Shown here: positions 1-6,676 of the stretch, one piece after another
Layout of the letters: each line of letters starts with the position of its first letter
Numbering within the stretch: position 1 is the first letter of the stretch
DNA from: an uncultured Chloroflexia bacterium
GTDB lineage: Bacteria > Chloroflexota > Anaerolineae > JAAYZQ01
DNA length: 64,000 nt
Direction of reading: 5' to 3'
Assembly: GCA_963783445.1 (NCBI GenBank)
Contig: CAWANP010000008.1
Coordinates: 14,986-78,985, forward strand
Position numbers and translations under genes: made by a program
Notes under the pieces: generated by a model
Told to the model about the DNA's origin: nothing
Database searches by the model: none
The model's input: the letters and a program-made list of their open reading frames with translations, nothing else

Positions 1-972
1 ATCCGCGATCCTGACTATGGCCGCAACGTCAGCTTTCACCGCTTGATGCAGGTTGGCCCCCGAGCCTTTACCGCCCGCATCGTCGAGGGTCGGGGAACAG
101 ATACGGCCTGGCGCAAGGCTTTGGCTGCCGGACAGGATCTGGAGGTAGCCGTTTGCCTGGGCGTGCCCATCCACGTTCTGCTGGCGGCGGCCATGAGCCC
201 AGCCAAAGGGGTGGACGAATTGTGCCTTGCCCATGCCCTGGCCCAGGCACCCCTGGTTCGCTGTGCAACGGTGGATCTGGAGGTGCCAGCCGAGTGCGAG
301 GTCATTCTGGAGGGACGGATCACCGGGCGTGAGGCCGACGAGGGACCGTTCATCGACCTGACCGAAACCTGGGACGTGATCCGCCATCAGCCGATCATCG
401 AGATCGATTGCATGACCCACCGGCAGTCACCCATCTATCACGCCCTGCTGCCTGGGGGGCTGGAACACAAGCTGCTGATGGGCTTGCCCCGAGAGCCCAC
501 CATCTTTCGAGCAGTGGCAGAGGTGGTCGACTGCCTGAATGTGAGCATCACACCCGGTGGGATGAGCTGGCTCCACGCCGTGGTGCAGATTTCCAAGCGC
601 AACCCCGACGACGGCTGGCACGCCATGGAGGCCGCTTTCCGGGGACATGGCTCTCTGAAGCACGTGGTCATCGTAGATGAGGACGTCAATCCCTTCGATC
701 CGGCAGCCGTCGAGTGGGCCATCGCTACGCGCTTCCAGGCAGACCAGGACCTGATGGTTCTTCAGGATCAGCCTAGCAGCAGCCTCGATCCTTCCGCCAA
801 TCAGGTACCAGGGCAGAAAGCCCGCTCGGCCAAGATGGGATTGGATGCCACCATACCTTGGGTTGACGGCGCCGGGCGTCCTAGAAGCCTGGCAGAGCGA
901 GATAGCTTCCGCAAGGTACCCTACGATGGCGTGGATCTCTCCAGGTACATTTCAGGCCCGGAGCAAGATTGA
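1..972 (+). CDS. UbiD-family prFMN-dependent decarboxylase, probable trans-anhydromevalonate 5-phosphate decarboxylase (5' end outside window)
   Basis: UbiD motifs EGPF, VIVDEDVN...VEWAIATRFQ, SSLDPS, KMGLDAT; frame open from window start; adjacent to aconitase X subunits and IPK. Confidence 0.88.
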   Translation: MRDPDYGRNVSFHRLMQVGPRAFTARIVEGRGTDTAWRKALAAGQDLEVAVCLGVPIHVLLAAAMSPAKGVDELCLAHALAQAPLVRCATVDLEVPAECEVILEGRITGREADEGPFIDLTETWDVIRHQPIIEIDCMTHRQSPIYHALLPGGLEHKLLMGLPREPTIFRAVAEVVDCLNVSITPGGMSWLHAVVQISKRNPDDGWHAMEAAFRGHGSLKHVVIVDEDVNPFDPAAVEWAIATRFQADQDLMVLQDQPSSSLDPSANQVPGQKARSAKMGLDATIPWVDGAGRPRSLAERDSFRKVPYDGVDLSRYISGPEQD

Positions 973-1019
973 CGGGAAGGCGCCCCATTCGACCATGATT
1001 TCTGTGATGAGAGATTCAC

Positions 1020-2318
1020 ATGACGAGCGATAACCCTCGCAAACATGAGACATCAAGACTACTTCTCACGAGCGAGGAACAAGCCATGTGGTCCGGTGAA
1101 GCCGGACCGGGCGTGCGAAAGGCTATGGAGATCGTGGTCGCCCTGGGCCAGATCTATGGCGCCGCTGATCTGGTACCGGCGGCCAGTGTTCAGGTATCCG
1201 GCGTGAGCTATAAGAACCTGGGCGACGCCGGCCTCGAGTTTCTGGAAGAGTGGGCGTCCCAAGGCGCCCGAGCCCGGGTGCCTGCTACCTTGAATCCAGC
1301 CGGCATGGACATGTTTGCATGGCGCAGGCTTGGATTCAGCCAGGGATTCGCCCAGCGGCAGAAGGCCGTCATCGCCGCCTACGAATCCTTGGGCATCGTA
1401 CCAACCTGCACCTGCACGCCCTACCTGGTAGGCTACAGACCCCAGTTTGGAGAGCATCTGGCCTGGGCCGAATCTTCGGCGGTGAGTTACGCCAACTCTG
1501 TCCTGGGTGCACGGACCAATCGCGAAGGGGGACCCAGTGCTCTGGCGGCAGCGATCACCGGGCGGACGGCACGTTACGGCCTTCACCTGGACGTGAACCG
1601 GACGGCGACAGCCATCGTCGACGTTCGCTGTGCCGTCACGTCAGATGCCGATCTGGGCGCCCTGGGTTACTTGGTGGGCCAACAGGTCAAGAATGGTGTC
1701 CCCTACTTTCGGAATCAGGGTATGGTAGATTGGGTAAACCTCAGGCTGGGGAACTGGGGGTTAAGGACGCTGGGAGCGGCAATGGCTGCCAGTGGCGCAG
1801 TTGCCCTGTATCACGTTGAAGGGATAACCCCAGAGGCAACGGCTGGGGGCGTGCTCACACCCGGCGCCCAGACCCTGGTCGTAGACAGCTTGGCTCCCGC
1901 CTACGCCCAACTCGACGGCCCCTCCGAGGCGGTGGATCTCGTGAGCCTGGGCTGCCCCCACGCCTCCCTGGGCGAAATTGGGGCCATTGCCGATTACCTG
2001 GAGGGGCGGCGGGTCAAGGCTGCCCTTTGGATAACCACGGCGCGAGCCACGCGAGATGCAGCCGACGAGGCCGGATTGGTAGCCCGTATCGAAGCCTCGG
2101 GCGGCCGGGTGGTACCCGACACGTGCATGGTGGTTGCTCCCGTAGCCGATCTCGGGTACCGCACACTGGCCACCAATTCGGCCAAAATGGCCTTCTACAC
2201 ACCCTCCCACAGCGGGCTCTCGGTGCGCTTTGGCACCATGGAGCAGTGTCTTGAGGCCGCCAGGACAGGCGCGTGGCCCAGCCTGCGATCTACACATCAC
2301 GAAACCCGGATCAGGTAG
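1020..2318 (+). CDS. Aconitase X catalytic (large) subunit, probable phosphomevalonate dehydratase large subunit (DUF521)
   Basis: Motifs SGVSYKN, CTCTPY, AWAESSAV, RTNREGGPSALAAA, LGCPH, DTCMVV (Fe-S cysteines); context. Confidence 0.92.
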   Translation: MTSDNPRKHETSRLLLTSEEQAMWSGEAGPGVRKAMEIVVALGQIYGAADLVPAASVQVSGVSYKNLGDAGLEFLEEWASQGARARVPATLNPAGMDMFAWRRLGFSQGFAQRQKAVIAAYESLGIVPTCTCTPYLVGYRPQFGEHLAWAESSAVSYANSVLGARTNREGGPSALAAAITGRTARYGLHLDVNRTATAIVDVRCAVTSDADLGALGYLVGQQVKNGVPYFRNQGMVDWVNLRLGNWGLRTLGAAMAASGAVALYHVEGITPEATAGGVLTPGAQTLVVDSLAPAYAQLDGPSEAVDLVSLGCPHASLGEIGAIADYLEGRRVKAALWITTARATRDAADEAGLVARIEASGGRVVPDTCMVVAPVADLGYRTLATNSAKMAFYTPSHSGLSVRFGTMEQCLEAARTGAWPSLRSTHHETRIR

Positions 2319-2319
2319 C

Positions 2320-2707
2320 ATGGAACTCACAGGACGGATCATCAAGAACGGAACCGCCAAAGGCATCGCCCTGGTAACATCAGAACCCATCGGATTCCTC
2401 GGTGGGATAGACCCGGAGACGGGTCTCGTCATTGAACCTGGGCATCCCCTGGAGCGACAGCTGTGTTGCCGGCCGGGTGCTGGTCTTTCCCACAGGCAAG
2501 GGCAGCACGGTAGGCTCGTATACCCTTTATCGCATGGCCAAGGCTGGCACAGCACCGGCTGCCATCATCAACGCCGAAAGCGAAGCAATCGTGGCTGTGG
2601 GAGCGATCATCAGCGACATTCCCATGGTAGACCAGGTGGACATCACCCAGATCCGGACCGGCGACCGGGTGTCTGTCGATGGAGATCGCGTGGAAGTAAG
2701 CCGATGA
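2320..2707 (+). CDS. Aconitase X swivel (small) subunit (DUF126), probable phosphomevalonate dehydratase small subunit; one frameshift near 2455-2462
   Basis: MELTGRII...FLGGIDPETG...GHPL in one frame, continuing VAGRVLVFPTGKGSTVGSY...IPMVD in another; KGSTVGS motif; frameshift probably a sequencing error. Confidence 0.85.
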
Positions 2708-3540
2708 TCCCAAGCAGTACAGGCCGGCTGGTATTCGTCAAGCTAGGCGGTTCGGTGATCACCGACAAGACTCAGCCCGAGAGGGATCGACCTGAAGTAA
2801 TCGGCCGCCTCGCAAACGAGGTTGCGCGCGCGCTGGCTCGCCGCCCTGACCTGCAACTGGTGTTGGGACACGGCAGTGGATCATTCGGGCACGTTGTTGC
2901 CCAGCACTATGGAACACGCCATGGGGTATGCGGTGAAGCCCAATGGCGGGGCTTTGCCGAGGTAGCATCGGTCGCATCGCTGCTGAATCGCATTGTAACT
3001 GAGGAATTCCTGGAGGTTGGCGTTCCAGTTTGGTCGCTCCAGCCATCTGCTATGGCCTGGTGCCGGGCTGGCGAACTGATATCGTTGGCTACAAGGCCCG
3101 TAGAACGCGCGCTGTCTTGTGGGTTGGTCCCTCTTTTGTACGGCGACGTGGCCCTGGACGAGGTACAGGGAGGCACGATCATCTCCACCGAGCAGATCTT
3201 TGCCTACCTGGCTCGCCAACTCCGCCCGGCCCAGATCGTACTGGTAGGAGAGGTAGATGGTGTATATGACCGGGATCCCTTGCGTGACCCATCAGCCAGC
3301 CCCATCCCAGAGATTTCGGCCTCGAACTGGGAAACGGTACGCGGCTCCCTGGGCGGCTCTCATGCCACCGACGTGACTGGCGGGATGCAGGCCAAGGTTG
3401 CAGAGATGGTGAGCTTGGTCCAAGAAATACCGGGGCTGACGGTACACCTGATCTCGGGCGAGCGTCGCGGCGCCCTGGAGACGGCCCTGCTTGAACCTGC
3501 CAGGGCTGCAGGTGGAACCATGATCCGCTGGAATGGCTAG
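2704..3540 (+). CDS. ipk: Isopentenyl phosphate kinase (amino-acid kinase family)
   Basis: KLGGSVITDK, GHGSGSFGH (IPK His signature), DVTGGM; ATG overlaps upstream stop (ATGA). Confidence 0.92.
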   Translation: MIPSSTGRLVFVKLGGSVITDKTQPERDRPEVIGRLANEVARALARRPDLQLVLGHGSGSFGHVVAQHYGTRHGVCGEAQWRGFAEVASVASLLNRIVTEEFLEVGVPVWSLQPSAMAWCRAGELISLATRPVERALSCGLVPLLYGDVALDEVQGGTIISTEQIFAYLARQLRPAQIVLVGEVDGVYDRDPLRDPSASPIPEISASNWETVRGSLGGSHATDVTGGMQAKVAEMVSLVQEIPGLTVHLISGERRGALETALLEPARAAGGTMIRWNG

Positions 3541-3568
3541 GTGGGCATCGGAAGGTAATCCAGCTAAC

Positions 3569-3597
3569 TTGCCCATAGACCCAAAAAGTGCTATGAT
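3569..3597 (+). promoter_or_regulatory. sigma70-type promoter upstream of the GHMP decarboxylase gene
   Basis: TTGCCC-17bp-TATGAT with extended -10 TG. Confidence 0.6.
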
Positions 3598-3621
3598 ATC
3601 GGCAAAGGCTGGCATACAGGA

Positions 3622-4608
3622 ATGTCGAAAGGCAAGACGACCGCGGTCGCAAACCCAAATATCGCTTTCATCAAATACTGGGGCAAGGCCAACGACGCCC
3701 TGAACCTGCCTGCGAATCCGTCACTTTCGATGAACCTGGCAGCACTGACGACAGTGACCACCGTCGAGTTTCGGTCGAGATTGTCCAGCGACATGGTGAC
3801 CATTGATGGACAGCCGGCAACGGGCCAGGCCCTGGAGCGGGTAGTCCAGCACCTTGATCGAGTCCGGACGTTGGCTGGAATCGATGAAAGTGCCCAGGTC
3901 GTCAGTCAGAATGACTTTCCGGCTGGGACAGGGTTGGCCTCATCAGCGTCCGCTTTTGCCGCCCTGTCACTGGCAGCGACGCAAGCGGCAGGGATTCGGC
4001 TGCACGAAGAAGAGCTGTCGCGCCTGGCGCGACTGGGATCTGGGTCGGCGTGCCGATCGGTTCCGGCAGGCTTTGTCCTATGGGATGGGGATCGCGATGA
4101 TACATCGTTTGCCCGTCAGGTAGCGCCCCCAGATCACTGGGACTTGTGCGATTTGGTTGCCATTGTCAGCCACCAGCACAAAGGGGTAGGCTCGCACGAC
4201 GGACACGAGATGGCGCCGACGAGTCCATTCTACGCAGCCCGGTTGAATGCCGTGCCAGGACTGCTGGCAACTGTCCTGTCAGGCATTCAGCAGCGTGATC
4301 TTGCGACAATGGGACCCGCCATTGAGGCCGATACCCTGGCCATGCATGGGGTGATGATGACCTCAGCTCCTTCGCTCTTGTACTGGGAAGCCGCGACGGT
4401 AGCCGTCCTGCAAGGGGTACGAGCTTGGCGCCAATCAGGTCTGGGCGTATTTTTCACACTGGACGCTGGCCCCAATGTGCACTGCTTCTGTGAAAGATGC
4501 GACGTCGCTGAGGTTGAGGCACGATTGCGTGGCCTGCCAGGCATCCAAGAAGTGCTGGTTAGCGGCCCGGGTGGTGGGGTGCGGCCAGTGGAATACCATT
4601 TGTTCTAG
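3622..4608 (+). CDS. mvaD: (Di)phosphomevalonate decarboxylase (GHMP family), likely mevalonate-5-phosphate decarboxylase
   Basis: NIAFIKYWGK, GLASSASAFAAL, GSGSACRS, FTLDAGPNVH motifs. Confidence 0.92.
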   Translation: MSKGKTTAVANPNIAFIKYWGKANDALNLPANPSLSMNLAALTTVTTVEFRSRLSSDMVTIDGQPATGQALERVVQHLDRVRTLAGIDESAQVVSQNDFPAGTGLASSASAFAALSLAATQAAGIRLHEEELSRLARLGSGSACRSVPAGFVLWDGDRDDTSFARQVAPPDHWDLCDLVAIVSHQHKGVGSHDGHEMAPTSPFYAARLNAVPGLLATVLSGIQQRDLATMGPAIEADTLAMHGVMMTSAPSLLYWEAATVAVLQGVRAWRQSGLGVFFTLDAGPNVHCFCERCDVAEVEARLRGLPGIQEVLVSGPGGGVRPVEYHLF

Positions 4609-4625
4609 AAGAGCAAAAGTCATAT

Positions 4626-5282
4626 TTGGAGGATCTCGAGTTGGAGTACAGCGAAAAGGTCATGGACCACTTTATGAACCCCCGCAACGTGGGGGTTATC
4701 GAGGATGCTGACGGCGTCGGCCGGACGGGCAACCCGACTTGCGGCGATCTTATGGAGATGTCAATCAAGATCAATGAAAACGTGATCACGGACATCAAGT
4801 TTCGGACCTTTGGCTGCGGGGCAGCCATCGCCACCAGCTCGATGGCCACGGAGTTGATCAAGGGCAAAACGATCGACGAAGCACTAGAGATCTCGAATCG
4901 GGCCATCGCCGAAGCGCTGGACGGGCTGCCGCCTGTCAAGATGCATTGTTCGGTTCTGGCTGCTGATGCCCTGCGCGCCACGCTGGCCGACTATTATACC
5001 CGCCAGGGTCAACTGGAAAAAGCCGCCGAGCTGACAGACGATGAAGTGGCCGAGCCCGTGGATTCGGAGGAAGCGCGCGAGCCACTGCATTGGGACGATT
5101 TTTGCAGAATGGTGCGGGCTCTGAACACCGCCTACCCGGATACAGATCCCCTGGACCTGAGCACGACCAAGCTATTCAAGATGGTCCTCAAGCTGCCCGG
5201 CTTTGACGACAGTCCGGAGGCGGCCAACGAGGAGCAGTTGGAAAAGCTGCAGATGGCCTGGCACGAGGTTCAGGCTGGTTAG
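4626..5282 (+). CDS. iscU: Fe-S cluster scaffold IscU/NifU-N fused to a C-terminal IscX(YfhJ)-like domain (alternative TTG start at 4641 after GGAGGA)
   Basis: GNPTCGD, FGCGAAIA, LPPVKMHC motifs; C-terminal LHWDD...YPDTDP...LPGFDDSPEAANEEQLEKLQMAW resembles IscX. Confidence 0.88.
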   Translation: MEDLELEYSEKVMDHFMNPRNVGVIEDADGVGRTGNPTCGDLMEMSIKINENVITDIKFRTFGCGAAIATSSMATELIKGKTIDEALEISNRAIAEALDGLPPVKMHCSVLAADALRATLADYYTRQGQLEKAAELTDDEVAEPVDSEEAREPLHWDDFCRMVRALNTAYPDTDPLDLSTTKLFKMVLKLPGFDDSPEAANEEQLEKLQMAWHEVQAG

Positions 5283-5305
5283 GGAAAGGCTTAGGGAATA
5301 GAACT

Positions 5306-6587
5306 GTGGTAACGGTTCTGTCGCTGGTAGTGGCACTGAGTGTCGTGGTATTTGTGCATGAACTGGGACACCTGCTCGCTGCCAAGCGCGCAAAGGTGGT
5401 GGTCGAGGAATTTGGCTTCGGCTATCCACCCCGCGTGTTTACCTTTTGGCATAGCGAAGGTGATATTGTCATCGGCGGGAGAAAAATCGTGATCCCCCGT
5501 GAAGTTCAAGTTGCCCAAAGGCTTGCAGGCTCGGTCTCTCGTGGTCTACCGAGACGGGAACCGACAAAAGGGCCGAGAGGTGTTGACCCACGTTGAGAAG
5601 GTTGAACCCGAGGATGCAGCCATCGAATCGGCCAGCTATGTCGAACTGCTGGATCCCGGCACACTCTACTCTCTCAATGCCATCCCCTTTGGGGGCTTTG
5701 CCCGCATGCTGGGCGAGGAGGATCCGACCTTCCCTGGCAGCCTGGCCAGCAAGAGCAAGATCACGCGGATTGTGGTACTGGCTGCCGGGGCAGGCATGAA
5801 TCTGTTGACTGGCCGTGGTCTTTTTTGCCCTGGCACTCCGTTTGGGCGCACCGGCTGTCGCGGAGCCAGAGAATGCAGTGGTGAACGCTGTAGCTCCAGG
5901 CTCGCCTGCCGAGGCTTCAGGGTTGCTGCCCGAGGGACGTGATCCTGCGCGCCGATGATCGGGAGATCTGAGAGATCACAGACCTGCAGGAGCATCTCAG
6001 AGCCCACCTGGGGGAGCCTGTGTCGCTGACGGTAAAGCGGGACGACGAGACACTAGCAGATCACGTCATACCCCGCATCACCCCGCCAGAGGGCGAGGGA
6101 CCGATGGGCATCAGCCTGACCCCACGCATGACCGTCAAGAACGTATCCGTGGCCGAAGCCCTCTGGCTGGGGATTAAACAAACAGCAGGCTACATCGGCT
6201 TCATCATCACCCTTCCCATCCAGATGTCAAGGGGTCTGATCCCAGCCGACCTGGCCCGGCCCGTGGGCCCAGTGGGAGTGGGGCGGCTGGTGGGCGATGC
6301 AGTACAGTACTCGCTCGACTAGCGGCTGGTGGTTTCCGGTGATGCAGATGATGGGTACCCTGAGCGTGGCTCTGGCAGTTACCAATCTGCTGCCGCTGCC
6401 TGCGCTGGATGGCGGGCGCATTCTCTTTGTCATTGTCGAAGGAATCCGTGGCCGCCGCATGGACCCGGCCAAAGAGGGCCTGGTACACCTTATTGGCATG
6501 TTGTTGCTGGTAGGCCTGATGCTATTCATTACCTGGCAGGATCTGATCAACCCTGTGCCCTCTTTGGACTGGGGCAGTTTCTTCTAG
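5306..6587 (+). CDS. rseP: RIP metalloprotease RseP (site-2 protease, M50 with PDZ), broken by several frameshifts
   Basis: HELGH, EFGFGYPP, AIPFGGFARM, AGAGMN, PDZ-like segment, GPVG, NLLPLPALDGGR spread over at least 4 reading-frame fragments. Confidence 0.85.
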
Positions 6588-6676
6588 CTCACAGCGTCCG
6601 GGACTGTAGCATGCATCTCACATCACAAAACGTGTCGTTCTAGTGGAGTCCAGCTCGCTGGCGACGAGGCAGTCCA

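What the first reader, a model, noticed from the sequence alone, without database searches (positions are those of the whole stretch)
1..4608. Two parallel routes from mevalonate-5-phosphate to isopentenyl phosphate in one bacterial cluster
Seen: UbiD decarboxylase, AcnX large and small subunits and IPK lie in one tight operon. A GHMP decarboxylase follows immediately with its own TTGCCC-17-TATGAT promoter (3569-3597). Established: AcnX plus UbiD make up the archaeal (Aeropyrum-type) route, which is ATP-sparing and needs an O2-labile Fe-S cluster and prFMN; it has also been reported in a Chloroflexota bacterium. A GHMP phosphomevalonate decarboxylase plus IPK is the haloarchaeal/Roseiflexus-type route, which uses ATP and no Fe-S. 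The segment that aligns by eye to the SSRxGM diphosphate-binding motif of firmicute MVD reads GSHDGH, which fits a monophosphate decarboxylase. Inference: both routes feed the same IPK and may be switched by oxygen, iron or energy status.
Basis: partly seen in the sequence, partly recalled or inferred. Interest (0 to 1): 0.85.

Follow-up and report, generated by a model that had tools for sequence, protein, structure and literature searches.

The report
Dual-route mevalonate gene cluster in Anaerolineae
A Chloroflexota bacterium carries, side by side, both known ways of turning phosphomevalonate into isopentenyl phosphate: the iron-sulfur "archaeal" enzyme pair and an ATP-using decarboxylase. 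The pairing is conserved across its family, which looks like the intermediate stage long proposed for how one route replaced the other.

Summary
The contig carries ubiX–ubiD–acnX(large)–acnX(small)–ipk in a tight array. An 81-nt gap follows, then a GHMP decarboxylase and an IscU-like gene.

- **Frameshift.** The acnX small-subunit frameshift is one extra C at 2461. Four relatives and one independent metagenome contig lack it. The same assembly also breaks RseP, HMG-CoA synthase and galactokinase, so I read it as an assembly error.
- **Decarboxylase.** It is the only MVD-like gene in the genome. Its best solved relative is a PMD structure (6N0X). It falls inside a clade of Anaerolineae enzymes from genomes without AcnX. 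It has His where true diphosphomevalonate decarboxylases have Met, and it lacks their Arg.
- **Rest of the pathway.** No phosphomevalonate kinase and no MEP-pathway genes were found. MVK, HMGR, HMGS and IDI2 are present.
- **Conservation.** Both routes occur in 15 of 23 genomes of the family, adjacent in 12. Elsewhere in the class they co-occur in 2 of 18.
- **Promoter.** TTGCCC-17-TATGAT is conserved in 9 of 9 related loci. It also drives iscU where the decarboxylase is missing, and one such locus keeps a decayed decarboxylase stub.

Switching by oxygen or iron remains inference. The only support is that cytochrome oxidase genes are more frequent in decarboxylase-bearing genomes.

The parts
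1..972 (+). UbiD-family decarboxylase, C-terminal 323 aa of a 453-aa gene; candidate anhydromevalonate phosphate decarboxylase (AMPD). The gene starts at L001:14596, 389 nt before the window. UbiX (182 aa) lies just upstream at L001:14045-14593.
   Evidence: PF01977 E 2.3e-40 and PF20696 E 2.3e-30. TIGR00148 365 bits against cut-off 245; UbiX TIGR00421 193 bits against 109. 36-53% identical to UbiD genes that sit beside AcnX in archaeal MAG loci.
1020..2318 (+). AcnX large subunit; candidate phosphomevalonate dehydratase (PMDh) large subunit
   Evidence: PF04412 E 3.8e-148. Best solved relative 7CNR at 355 bits, against cis-3-hydroxy-L-proline dehydratase at 243 bits. Sits in a Chloroflexota clade with UbiD/UbiX/IPK neighbours. 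Only copy in the genome.
2320..2707 (+). AcnX small (swivel) subunit, read in two frames in this assembly
   Evidence: PF01989 E 3.2e-24 on 2432-2707. Only copy in the genome. Intact 128-aa gene in the same-genus locus L024. dN/dS 0.20 against L024 once base 2461 is skipped.
2461..2461 (+). Single extra C that causes the frameshift; most likely an assembly error
   Evidence: Absent from 4 of 4 aligned relatives. Absent from the one metagenome contig that covers it (run X1, 'left out 1' at 2462, depth 6.18 of 6.18).
2704..3540 (+). Isopentenyl phosphate kinase; its ATG overlaps the small-subunit stop (ATGA)
   Evidence: NF040647 174.6 bits against cut-off 120. PF00696 E 1.7e-31. Sequence read.
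3563..3597 (+). Conserved promoter block GCTAACTTGCC-N14-GTGCTATGAT (-35 TTGCCC at 3569, extended -10 TGCTATGAT ending at 3597)
   Evidence: Scan hit. Conserved in 9 of 9 related loci while the flanks diverge. Unique in the own genome.
3622..4608 (+). GHMP-family decarboxylase, His-type; candidate phosphomevalonate decarboxylase (PMD)
   Evidence: PF22700 E 5.4e-55. Only MVD-like gene in the genome. Best solved relative 6N0X at 339.5 bits, against 200.7 bits for the best DMD. Clade placement. dN/dS 0.18.
4626..5282 (+). IscU/NifU_N scaffold fused to an Fe-S_assembly (IscX-like) domain, 17 nt after the decarboxylase; probably in the same transcript
   Evidence: PF01592 E 1.5e-50 and PF04384 E 9.2e-17. 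Follows the decarboxylase, or the same promoter directly, in relatives.
5306..6587 (+). RseP-like M50 protease, broken into at least 3 frame pieces here; a marker of assembly quality
   Evidence: The M50 profile is split over three ORFs in the window but is one 425-aa ORF in L024. Indels against contigs of up to three other runs.

Best explanation
This is the lower-mevalonate gene cluster of an Anaerolineae (Chloroflexota) bacterium. It encodes two complete, parallel conversions of mevalonate-5-phosphate to isopentenyl phosphate.

Route A is the archaeal type. AcnX large and small subunits (phosphomevalonate dehydratase, an Fe-S enzyme) make trans-anhydromevalonate-5-phosphate. The UbiD enzyme, with prFMN supplied by the adjacent UbiX, decarboxylates it.

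Route B is a single ATP-dependent GHMP decarboxylase of the phosphomevalonate decarboxylase (PMD) type.

Both routes feed the one IPK. MVK, HMGR, an archaeal-type HMGS and IDI2 lie elsewhere in the genome. No phosphomevalonate kinase and no MEP pathway genes were found.

The small-subunit frameshift is an assembly error, so route A is intact.

The cluster is two transcription units. ubiX-ubiD-acnXL-acnXS-ipk is tightly coupled. The decarboxylase, with iscU and probably rseP, runs from its own conserved promoter.

The two-route state is ancestral to this family and kept by selection. Some lineages later lost the decarboxylase.

Shown here: gene content, synteny, conservation, purifying selection, the promoter footprint. 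Inferred: substrates, activity, and that both routes run in vivo.
For: **Gene identities.**

**Single copies.** One MVD-like gene, one AcnX-L and one AcnX-S in the genome.

**Rest of the pathway.**
- MVK 244 bits against cut-off 163.
- HMGR 386 bits.
- IDI2 399.5 bits against 281.
- Archaeal-type HMGS present but in 3 frame pieces that sum to 502 bits against a cut-off of 353.

**No competing routes.**
- None of the 6 GHMP kinases reaches the PMK model; the best scores 25 bits against 166.
- IspH, IspG and IspE were not found in a genome that is 90% complete.

**Decarboxylase type.**
- 339.5 bits to 6N0X against 200.7 bits to the best DMD.
- His in place of the DMD Met and no Arg.
- Clade of 16 family rows (support 99), sister to a decarboxylase from a genome without AcnX (G034) and nested among His-type enzymes.

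**Frameshift is an error.**
- The extra C is absent in 4 of 4 relatives and in one independent contig.
- The same-genus locus has every gene intact.
- RseP, HMGS and galactokinase are also broken in this assembly.
- dN/dS is 0.20 across the small subunit.

**Conservation.**
- Both routes occur in 15 of 23 family genomes, adjacent in 12. They co-occur in 2 of 18 genomes from other families of the class.
- dN/dS is 0.09-0.20 for all seven genes.

**Promoter.** Conserved in 9 of 9 loci.

**Ancestral state.** Locus L028 keeps a stub of decarboxylase residues 2-38 (43% identical, one internal stop) between the promoter and iscU.
Against: - No enzyme was assayed and no RNA data exist for this organism (one search listed no RNA holder).
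- The decarboxylase keeps Lys in YWGK, a residue that Zhu et al. 2024 call the conserved lysine of DMD. It passes the old DMD model TIGR01240 (242 bits against 171) and fails the PMD model NF040704 (184 against 475). Its specificity is therefore not settled.
- Only one metagenome contig, from a related population and not the same strain, covers position 2461.
- The genome is 90% complete and error-rich, so 'not found' for PMK and MEP genes is not proof of absence. The search for the animal-type PMK family rang in no control genome, so it says nothing.
- 6 of 23 family genomes have AcnX without the decarboxylase. The decarboxylase is therefore dispensable in some lineages.
- No AMPD structure or family model exists to test the UbiD directly.
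Confidence: 0.7

Rival explanations
1. The GHMP enzyme is a classical diphosphomevalonate decarboxylase, or a dual-specificity enzyme, that works with an unrecognised phosphomevalonate kinase. The cluster would then hold an archaeal route plus a eukaryote-type route rather than two routes to isopentenyl phosphate.
For: It passes TIGR01240 (242 bits against 171) and fails NF040704. It has the Lys of YWGK, as the two aligned DMDs do. Pipelines name its close homologues 'diphosphomevalonate decarboxylase'. Zhu et al. 2024 state that a Chloroflexota DMD homologue has additional PMD activity.
Against: No GHMP-type PMK among the 6 GHMP kinases. His replaces the DMD Met, and His replaces the Arg of S-R-x-G-M. 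All 83 Met-type rows fall elsewhere in the tree, while this enzyme nests with decarboxylases from Anaerolineae that lack AcnX. 11 of 53 His-type representatives also carry Lys, so Lys alone does not mark a DMD.
Confidence: 0.1
2. The frameshift is real. In this strain the archaeal route is dead (only one small-subunit gene exists) and the decarboxylase carries all flux, making this a snapshot of route replacement.
For: The extra C is in the deposited sequence and is not in a homopolymer. Only one small-subunit gene exists. Other members of the class have the decarboxylase alone (6 of 18).
Against: Four of the 13 genes checked in this assembly are broken: AcnX-S, RseP, HMGS and galactokinase. 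One of them is HMGS, which both routes need. RseP indels are contradicted by contigs of up to three other runs. There is no excess of amino-acid change after the shift (dN/dS 0.20). The same-genus relative is intact.
Confidence: 0.08
3. The redundancy is neutral and transient. The decarboxylase is a leftover on its way out and adds nothing physiologically.
For: It was lost in some lineages: the L028 stub, L033, and 6 of 23 family genomes with AcnX only.
Against: It is kept adjacent in 12 genomes of at least 10 genera, with catalytic motifs intact in all 16 family rows. dN/dS is 0.18, the same as AcnX-L. It sits first behind a conserved promoter.
Confidence: 0.1
4. The AcnX/UbiD pair acts on another substrate (for example a hydroxyproline-type dehydration) and only the decarboxylase serves isoprenoid synthesis.
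For: The only NCBIfam hit of AcnX-L is cis-3-hydroxy-L-proline dehydratase, though at 320 bits against a cut-off of 700.
Against: The pair is translationally coupled to IPK and sits next to UbiX and UbiD. The same order is seen in archaeal MAGs. AcnX-L is nearer 7CNR than the hydroxyproline dehydratases. It lies outside the clade without mevalonate neighbours. 10 of 18 genomes from other families of the class have AcnX and no MVD-like gene at all.
Confidence: 0.02

Closest known systems
Archaeal mevalonate pathway of Candidatus Promineifilum breve (Kanno et al. 2024, Appl Environ Microbiol). I saw only the title in two reference lists; the paper is not held.
   Same: A Chloroflexota bacterium with AcnX-type phosphomevalonate dehydratase, a UbiD-type decarboxylase and IPK.
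   Different: Here a PMD-type decarboxylase sits in the same cluster behind its own conserved promoter, and this holds across a family. I could not check whether that paper reports a PMD homologue in Ca. P. breve, nor how close that organism is to this one.
Haloarchaea-type pathway (PMD plus IPK) of Chloroflexi and haloarchaea. Dellas et al. 2013 was seen as a citation only. Passages of Aoki et al. 2022 (PMC9254496) were read. The link between PDB 6N0X and the Anaerolinea thermophila PMD is recalled.
   Same: A His-type GHMP decarboxylase, 339.5 bits to 6N0X, with IPK present and no PMK.
   Different: This family's enzyme has Lys, Arg or Gln where 6N0X and 5 of 6 decarboxylases from class genomes without AcnX have Asn. 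It has His or Tyr where they have Thr, Ser or Ala. It also coexists with the dehydratase/decarboxylase pair that PMD is thought to have replaced.
Archaeal pathway of Aeropyrum pernix and Methanosarcina mazei. Hayakawa et al. 2018 was seen as a citation only. The abstract and passages of PMC12547664 were read.
   Same: The same enzyme set, and the same ubiX-ubiD-acnXL-acnXS order as in archaeal MAG loci. The pathway is described as using two thirds of the ATP of other mevalonate pathways and as containing an oxidation-sensitive Fe-S dehydratase.
   Different: Bacterial host. AcnX-L forms a Chloroflexota clade separate from the archaeal ones. An ATP-using bypass is encoded alongside.
Classical diphosphomevalonate decarboxylases (solved structures 5V2L and 2HK2)
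   Same: Same fold family. YWGK, GLASSAS, GSGSA(C/S)RS and DAGPN motifs are shared.
   Different: S-R-x-G-M reads S-H-D-G-H. About 200 bits against 340 for the PMD structure. No PMK in the genome.

Membership tests
Phosphomevalonate dehydratase (AcnX, two-subunit archaeal type) | Separate large (PF04412) and small (PF01989) subunit genes, adjacent | tested here: met
   There is a 1-nt gap between the genes. The small subunit is split by one extra base, which I judge an assembly error.
Phosphomevalonate dehydratase (AcnX, two-subunit archaeal type) | Closer to the archaeal enzyme than to cis-3-hydroxy-L-proline dehydratase | tested here: met
   7CNR scores 355 bits against 243.5 for 7D2R. NF051439 scores 320 bits, below its cut-off of 700. 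The protein lies outside the 10-row clade without mevalonate neighbours (FastTree, 67 of 80 loci used).
Phosphomevalonate dehydratase (AcnX, two-subunit archaeal type) | Cysteines that hold the Fe-S cluster | tested here: inconclusive
   Three Cys columns (CTP, GCPHAS, PD-x-C) are shared with 7CNR in the alignment. That these are the cluster ligands is recalled, not tested.
Phosphomevalonate dehydratase (AcnX, two-subunit archaeal type) | Dehydrates mevalonate-5-phosphate | not testable with these tools
   Needs an anaerobic enzyme assay.
Anhydromevalonate phosphate decarboxylase (UbiD family) | UbiD fold with a UbiX partner, encoded beside AcnX | tested here: met
   The same neighbourhood occurs in Hadarchaeota, Bathyarchaeota and Methanobacteriota MAG loci.
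Anhydromevalonate phosphate decarboxylase (UbiD family) | Family-specific sequence model or solved structure | not testable with these tools
   No such model appeared in NCBIfam or Pfam hits. The best solved relative, 6H6V, is a different UbiD enzyme.
Phosphomevalonate decarboxylase (PMD) | His in place of the DMD Met, and no Arg, in the S-R-x-G-M segment | tested here: met
   GSHDGH against SSRDGM and PSRYGM. The His is kept in all 16 family rows.
Phosphomevalonate decarboxylase (PMD) | Loss of the DMD lysine in YWGK | tested here: not met
   The protein reads YWGKAND. 11 of 53 His-type representatives also keep Lys, so the feature may not be defining. It is named as a hallmark in PMC11052028.
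Phosphomevalonate decarboxylase (PMD) | Curated model NF040704 (MvaD) | tested here: not met
   184.4 bits against a cut-off of 475. I could not check whether the Chloroflexota PMD of 6N0X passes this model.
Phosphomevalonate decarboxylase (PMD) | Genome context: IPK present, PMK absent | tested here: met
   IPK is in the cluster. No PMK among the 6 GHMP kinases. The genome is 90% complete.
Diphosphomevalonate decarboxylase (DMD) | Curated model TIGR01240 | tested here: met
   242 bits against a cut-off of 171. This model is the broadest of the three decarboxylase models that hit.
Diphosphomevalonate decarboxylase (DMD) | S-R-x-G-M diphosphate-binding segment, and a PMK to make the substrate | tested here: not met
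Isopentenyl phosphate kinase | Curated model NF040647 | tested here: met
   174.6 bits against a cut-off of 120.

The most novel reading that the evidence does not exclude
The decarboxylase is an Fe-S-independent emergency bypass wired to Fe-S status. It is the first gene behind the conserved promoter that otherwise drives the IscU-IscX scaffold gene. When oxygen or iron shortage damages Fe-S clusters, including that of the dehydratase, the cell would raise scaffold and bypass together. It would pay one extra ATP per isoprene unit to keep lipid and quinone precursor supply going. The archaeal-route operon starts 25 nt after a strong conserved terminator hairpin with no promoter of its own in between, so it would be set separately by read-through. 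[quoted passage not shown]
Probability: 0.25. Interest if true: 0.8.

Novelty: new variant of a known kind. Interest (0 to 1): 0.6.

Why it matters
Aoki et al. 2022 (passages) propose that PMD arose in a cell with the archaeal route and then replaced the dehydratase/decarboxylase pair. That scheme needs an ancestor that had both.

Here such a state is conserved under purifying selection across at least ten genera. Sister lineages have gone either way: one kept a decarboxylase stub, and others in the class have the decarboxylase alone. This makes the replacement step open to experiment in living bacteria.

It also offers natural parts for engineering. PMC12547664 describes the archaeal route as ATP-saving but containing an oxygen-sensitive enzyme. 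An organism that keeps both routes, and carries a cytochrome oxidase gene, may show how cells combine economy with robustness.

Across six literature searches of the held library I found no paper describing this co-occurrence. The key 2024 paper on Ca. Promineifilum breve could not be read, so priority is uncertain.

Tried and rejected
**Programmed +1 frameshift in the small subunit.** Rejected. Four relatives encode the protein in one frame without the extra base.

**Homopolymer error at CCCC 2446-2449.** This was my first guess. It is rejected: the alignment puts the extra base at C 2461, in CAG[C]TGT.

**A regulon sharing the promoter motif.** The full motif occurs once in the genome. Two other loose matches look unrelated.

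**Known RNA element between the L25 gene and ubiX, or before the decarboxylase.** No Rfam match reached a gathering score. The best was ctRNA_p42d at 24.9 bits against 50.

**Expression data.** No RNA holder was listed, so nothing can be said about expression.

**Habitat.** The runs holding related sequence are sediment metagenomes with small shares of the words (0.05-0.21). I draw no conclusion from that.

**Animal-type PMK (PF04275).** No match, but the control rang nowhere, so the search is uninformative.

**Bacterial-type HMGS model (TIGR01835).** Only weak hits to the archaeal-type gene.

**Names from the protein search.** The best 120 hits are all close relatives (69-92% identity) that carry only pipeline names. 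They were no help for outgroups.

**Cytochrome oxidase association.** Any COX1 match at E <= 1e-20 occurs in 21 of 24 decarboxylase-bearing genomes and 8 of 16 AcnX-only genomes. At 290 bits or more the counts are 13 of 24 and 3 of 16. The Fisher p values (0.014 and 0.047) ignore relatedness. I chose the 290-bit line after seeing the scores, and the weaker matches (about 200 bits) may not be oxygen reductases. I treat this as a hint only.

**Not used.** No structure prediction, complex prediction or atlas search was run, because family assignments were clear without them. Supplements of papers were not opened. The supplements of PMC11052028 (its Figure S6, motif patterns) may bear on the Lys/His rule.

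Full report
**Where the window lies.** The window is contig C8:14986-78985 of a 7.32-Mb, 23-contig genome. The genome has 60% G+C and is 90.4% complete. Titles of the nearest public loci name Anaerolineae or Chloroflexota MAGs.

**Anatomy.** The finding starts inside a gene, so I fetched the upstream contig. In order on the + strand:

| Gene | Position |
|---|---|
| Ribosomal protein L25 gene | L001:13216-13965 |
| UbiX | L001:14045-14593 |
| UbiD | L001:14596-15957 (window up to 972) |
| AcnX large subunit | 1020-2318 |
| AcnX small subunit | 2320-2707 |
| IPK | 2704-3540 |
| 81-nt gap | 3541-3621 |
| GHMP decarboxylase | 3622-4608 |
| IscU-like gene | 4626-5282 |
| RseP-like protease | 5306-6587 |

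The first five genes are separated by 2, 47, 1 and -4 nt.

**The frameshift.** The small subunit reads in frame 1 up to about 2460 and in frame 2 afterwards.
- Aligned to four relatives, the window has one extra C at 2461 (CAG[C]TGT). Without it the protein reads like its same-genus homologue.
- Contigs of four metagenome runs were laid on 1-6600. The one contig that covers the site lacks one base at 2462 (run X1, depth 6.18 of 6.18).
- The same table lists eleven more single-base differences in 5302-6230. Several are shared by contigs of two or three runs. There the RseP-like gene is cut into pieces that carry M50 profile positions 2-44, 46-97 and 156-220.
- In the same-genus locus L024 every gene of the cluster, including a 425-aa RseP, is one open frame.
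- Elsewhere in this genome the archaeal-type HMG-CoA synthase is in three frame pieces, and galactokinase stops at profile position 259 of 382.
- In all, four of the thirteen genes I looked at are broken. One of them, HMGS, is needed by either route.
- After skipping base 2461, the small subunit shows dN/dS 0.20 against L024.

I conclude that the frameshift is an assembly error (about 85% sure). This matters because the genome has only one small-subunit gene.

**Route A.**
- AcnX-L matches the archaeal AcnX structure 7CNR at 355 bits and cis-3-hydroxy-L-proline dehydratases at 238-244 bits. It fails the curated hydroxyproline dehydratase model (320 bits against 700).
- I built a FastTree of 67 related loci plus the window. 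Of 80 loci, 12 were dropped because the matched stretch held a stop and 1 for short cover. The window sits in a 28-row Chloroflexota clade (support 99). Many members of that clade have UbiD, UbiX or IPK next door. A separate 10-row clade from Bacillota, Pseudomonadota, Thermodesulfobacteriota and one Chloroflexota MAG has no such neighbours.
- The order ubiX-ubiD-acnXL-acnXS recurs in Hadarchaeota, Bathyarchaeota and Methanobacteriota MAG loci.
- The UbiD has no solved or modelled AMPD to compare with. Its best solved relative is another UbiD enzyme, so its role rests on context.

**Route B.**
- The decarboxylase is the only MVD-like gene in the genome.
- Its best solved relative is 6N0X (339.5 bits, E 1.9e-100). 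By recall, 6N0X is the Anaerolinea thermophila PMD that Aoki et al. mention. True DMDs score 200 bits or less.
- In the HMMER alignments, the DMD segment S-R-x-G-M reads GSHDGH here and GSTQGH in 6N0X.
- The engineered variant 6N0Z differs from 6N0X at exactly two visible places. One is Asn to Lys in YWGN. The other is His to Met in this segment.
- Zhu et al. 2024 call these the conserved lysine of DMD and the conserved histidine of PMD (passage). The window's enzyme has both the Lys and the His.
- I tallied 159 rows. These were 150 library representatives filtered to 280-420 aa, plus locus sequences, four of which are duplicates. 79 of 83 Met-type rows have Lys. 11 of 53 His-type representatives also have it. 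His against Met is therefore the cleaner divider.
- In the tree, the 16 rows of this family (12 distinct genomes) form one clade (support 99). That clade is sister to the decarboxylase of a genome without AcnX (G034), and it sits inside a His-type group.
- Decarboxylases from class genomes without AcnX read YWGN in 5 of 6. The family rows read YWGK, YWGR or YWGQ.
- The substrate is inferred to be mevalonate-5-phosphate. Some activity on the diphosphate cannot be excluded.

**Rest of the pathway.**
- MVK: 244 bits against 163.
- HMGR.
- IDI2.
- Archaeal-type HMGS.
- Of six GHMP kinases, none approaches the PMK or IspE models.
- IspH and IspG were not found.
- A heme-copper oxidase subunit I gene is present (452 bits).

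**Conservation.** I surveyed 41 genomes: the window's own genome plus 40 relatives.

| Group | Both | AcnX only | Decarboxylase only | Neither |
|---|---|---|---|---|
| Family f1 (n = 23) | 15 | 6 | 1 | 1 |
| Other families of the class (n = 18) | 2 | 10 | 6 | 0 |

- Overall, AcnX passes its cut-off in 33 genomes and the MVD-like domain in 24 (table computed).
- In 12 of the 15 'both' genomes, the two genes lie on one contig and strand, 1.3-1.7 kb apart.
- Public loci show the same acnXL-acnXS-ipk-decarboxylase-iscU order in L024, L026, L027, L034, L035 and L067 (L026 ends within the decarboxylase).
- L028 and L033 go from ipk straight to iscU.
- All seven genes show dN/dS of 0.09-0.20 between the window and L024.

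**The promoter.**
- The block GCTAACTTGCC-N14-GTGCTATGAT is kept in all nine loci while the rest of the spacer diverges. In one search the L035 row was anchored on an upstream look-alike; its true copy is visible.
- Where the decarboxylase is missing, the same block sits before iscU.
- In L028 it is followed by a decayed stub that matches decarboxylase residues 2-38 (43% identity, one stop).
- The decarboxylase was therefore lost from a two-route ancestor, not newly inserted here.
- The motif is unique in the genome.

**Upstream of ubiX.** A strong hairpin with a T-run lies between the L25 gene and ubiX (91-nt stretch, -45 kcal/mol, z -5.55). It ends 25 nt before the ubiX start and is conserved in sequence in relatives. 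No sigma-70-like site lies between them. The nearest one precedes the L25 gene.

**How it most likely works.** Mevalonate-5-phosphate from MVK is turned into isopentenyl phosphate in one of two ways. The Fe-S dehydratase plus the prFMN decarboxylase use no ATP. The GHMP decarboxylase uses one ATP. IPK and IDI2 finish the pathway. The two routes sit in different transcription units. The decarboxylase shares its unit with an Fe-S scaffold gene.

That the units respond differently to oxygen or iron is inference. The only comparative hint is that oxidase genes are more common in decarboxylase-bearing genomes than in AcnX-only genomes (21 of 24 against 8 of 16, not corrected for relatedness).

**Novelty.** Each route is known in Chloroflexota. 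The archaeal route is known from the title of Kanno et al. 2024, seen in reference lists. The PMD route is known from passages of Aoki et al. 2022.

None of six searches of the held library found their conserved coexistence in one cluster, with a shared IPK and a separate conserved promoter. I rate this a new variant of a known kind.

Noticed in passing
window 5306-6587; G000:C12:205631-206658; G000:C4:852219-853076: The assembly carries many single-base indels. RseP is in at least 3 pieces, archaeal-type HMG-CoA synthase is in 3 pieces, and galactokinase is truncated. Any broken gene in this genome should be distrusted until reads are checked.
   Followed up: partly
window 4626-5282: The scaffold gene is a fusion of NifU_N/IscU with an Fe-S_assembly (IscX-like) domain. 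In this family it is conserved directly after the decarboxylase, or after the same promoter where the decarboxylase is missing.
   Followed up: partly
L001:13988-14030 (upstream of the window): A strong terminator-like hairpin (GGATCACGCC...GGCGTGATCC plus a T-run) lies between the L25 gene and ubiX. It is conserved in sequence, not by covariation, in relatives, and it ends 25 nt before the ubiX start. It could be a terminator that sets read-through, or a palindromic protein site.
   Followed up: partly
L028:6403-6520: A decayed stub of the decarboxylase (residues 2-38, with an internal stop) remains between the conserved promoter and iscU in a relative that otherwise lacks the gene.
   Followed up: yes
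L074:5682-10348: A Halobacteriales MAG contig carries UbiD-AcnXL-AcnXS-UbiX followed by a PMD-like gene (34% identity). Both routes may therefore also coexist in a haloarchaeon.
   Followed up: no
L069:499-9130: A MAG titled Deltaproteobacteria (placed in Myxococcota by the tree tool) has IDI2-MVK-decarboxylase-HMGR-UbiD-AcnXL-AcnXS-UbiX. Its decarboxylase is Met-type (KSTGM), so an archaeal route sits beside a DMD-like enzyme.
   Followed up: no
L050:1832-9321: An Elusimicrobiota MAG has a complete IDI2-HMGR-MVK-UbiX-UbiD-AcnXL-AcnXS-IPK array without a decarboxylase. This is the archaeal route in yet another bacterial phylum.
   Followed up: no
P0126, P0136, P0165, P0224, P0258: Library representatives of 608-690 aa carry the decarboxylase as one half of a longer protein, which suggests fusions with another pathway enzyme.
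   Followed up: no
L102:441-4299: A Chloroflexota MAG has two tandem AcnX large/small pairs with no mevalonate genes nearby. They group with the clade that has no mevalonate context.
   Followed up: no
G000:C9:348275-348844: A second UbiD-family gene lies elsewhere in the genome (197 bits). Its role was not examined.
   Followed up: no
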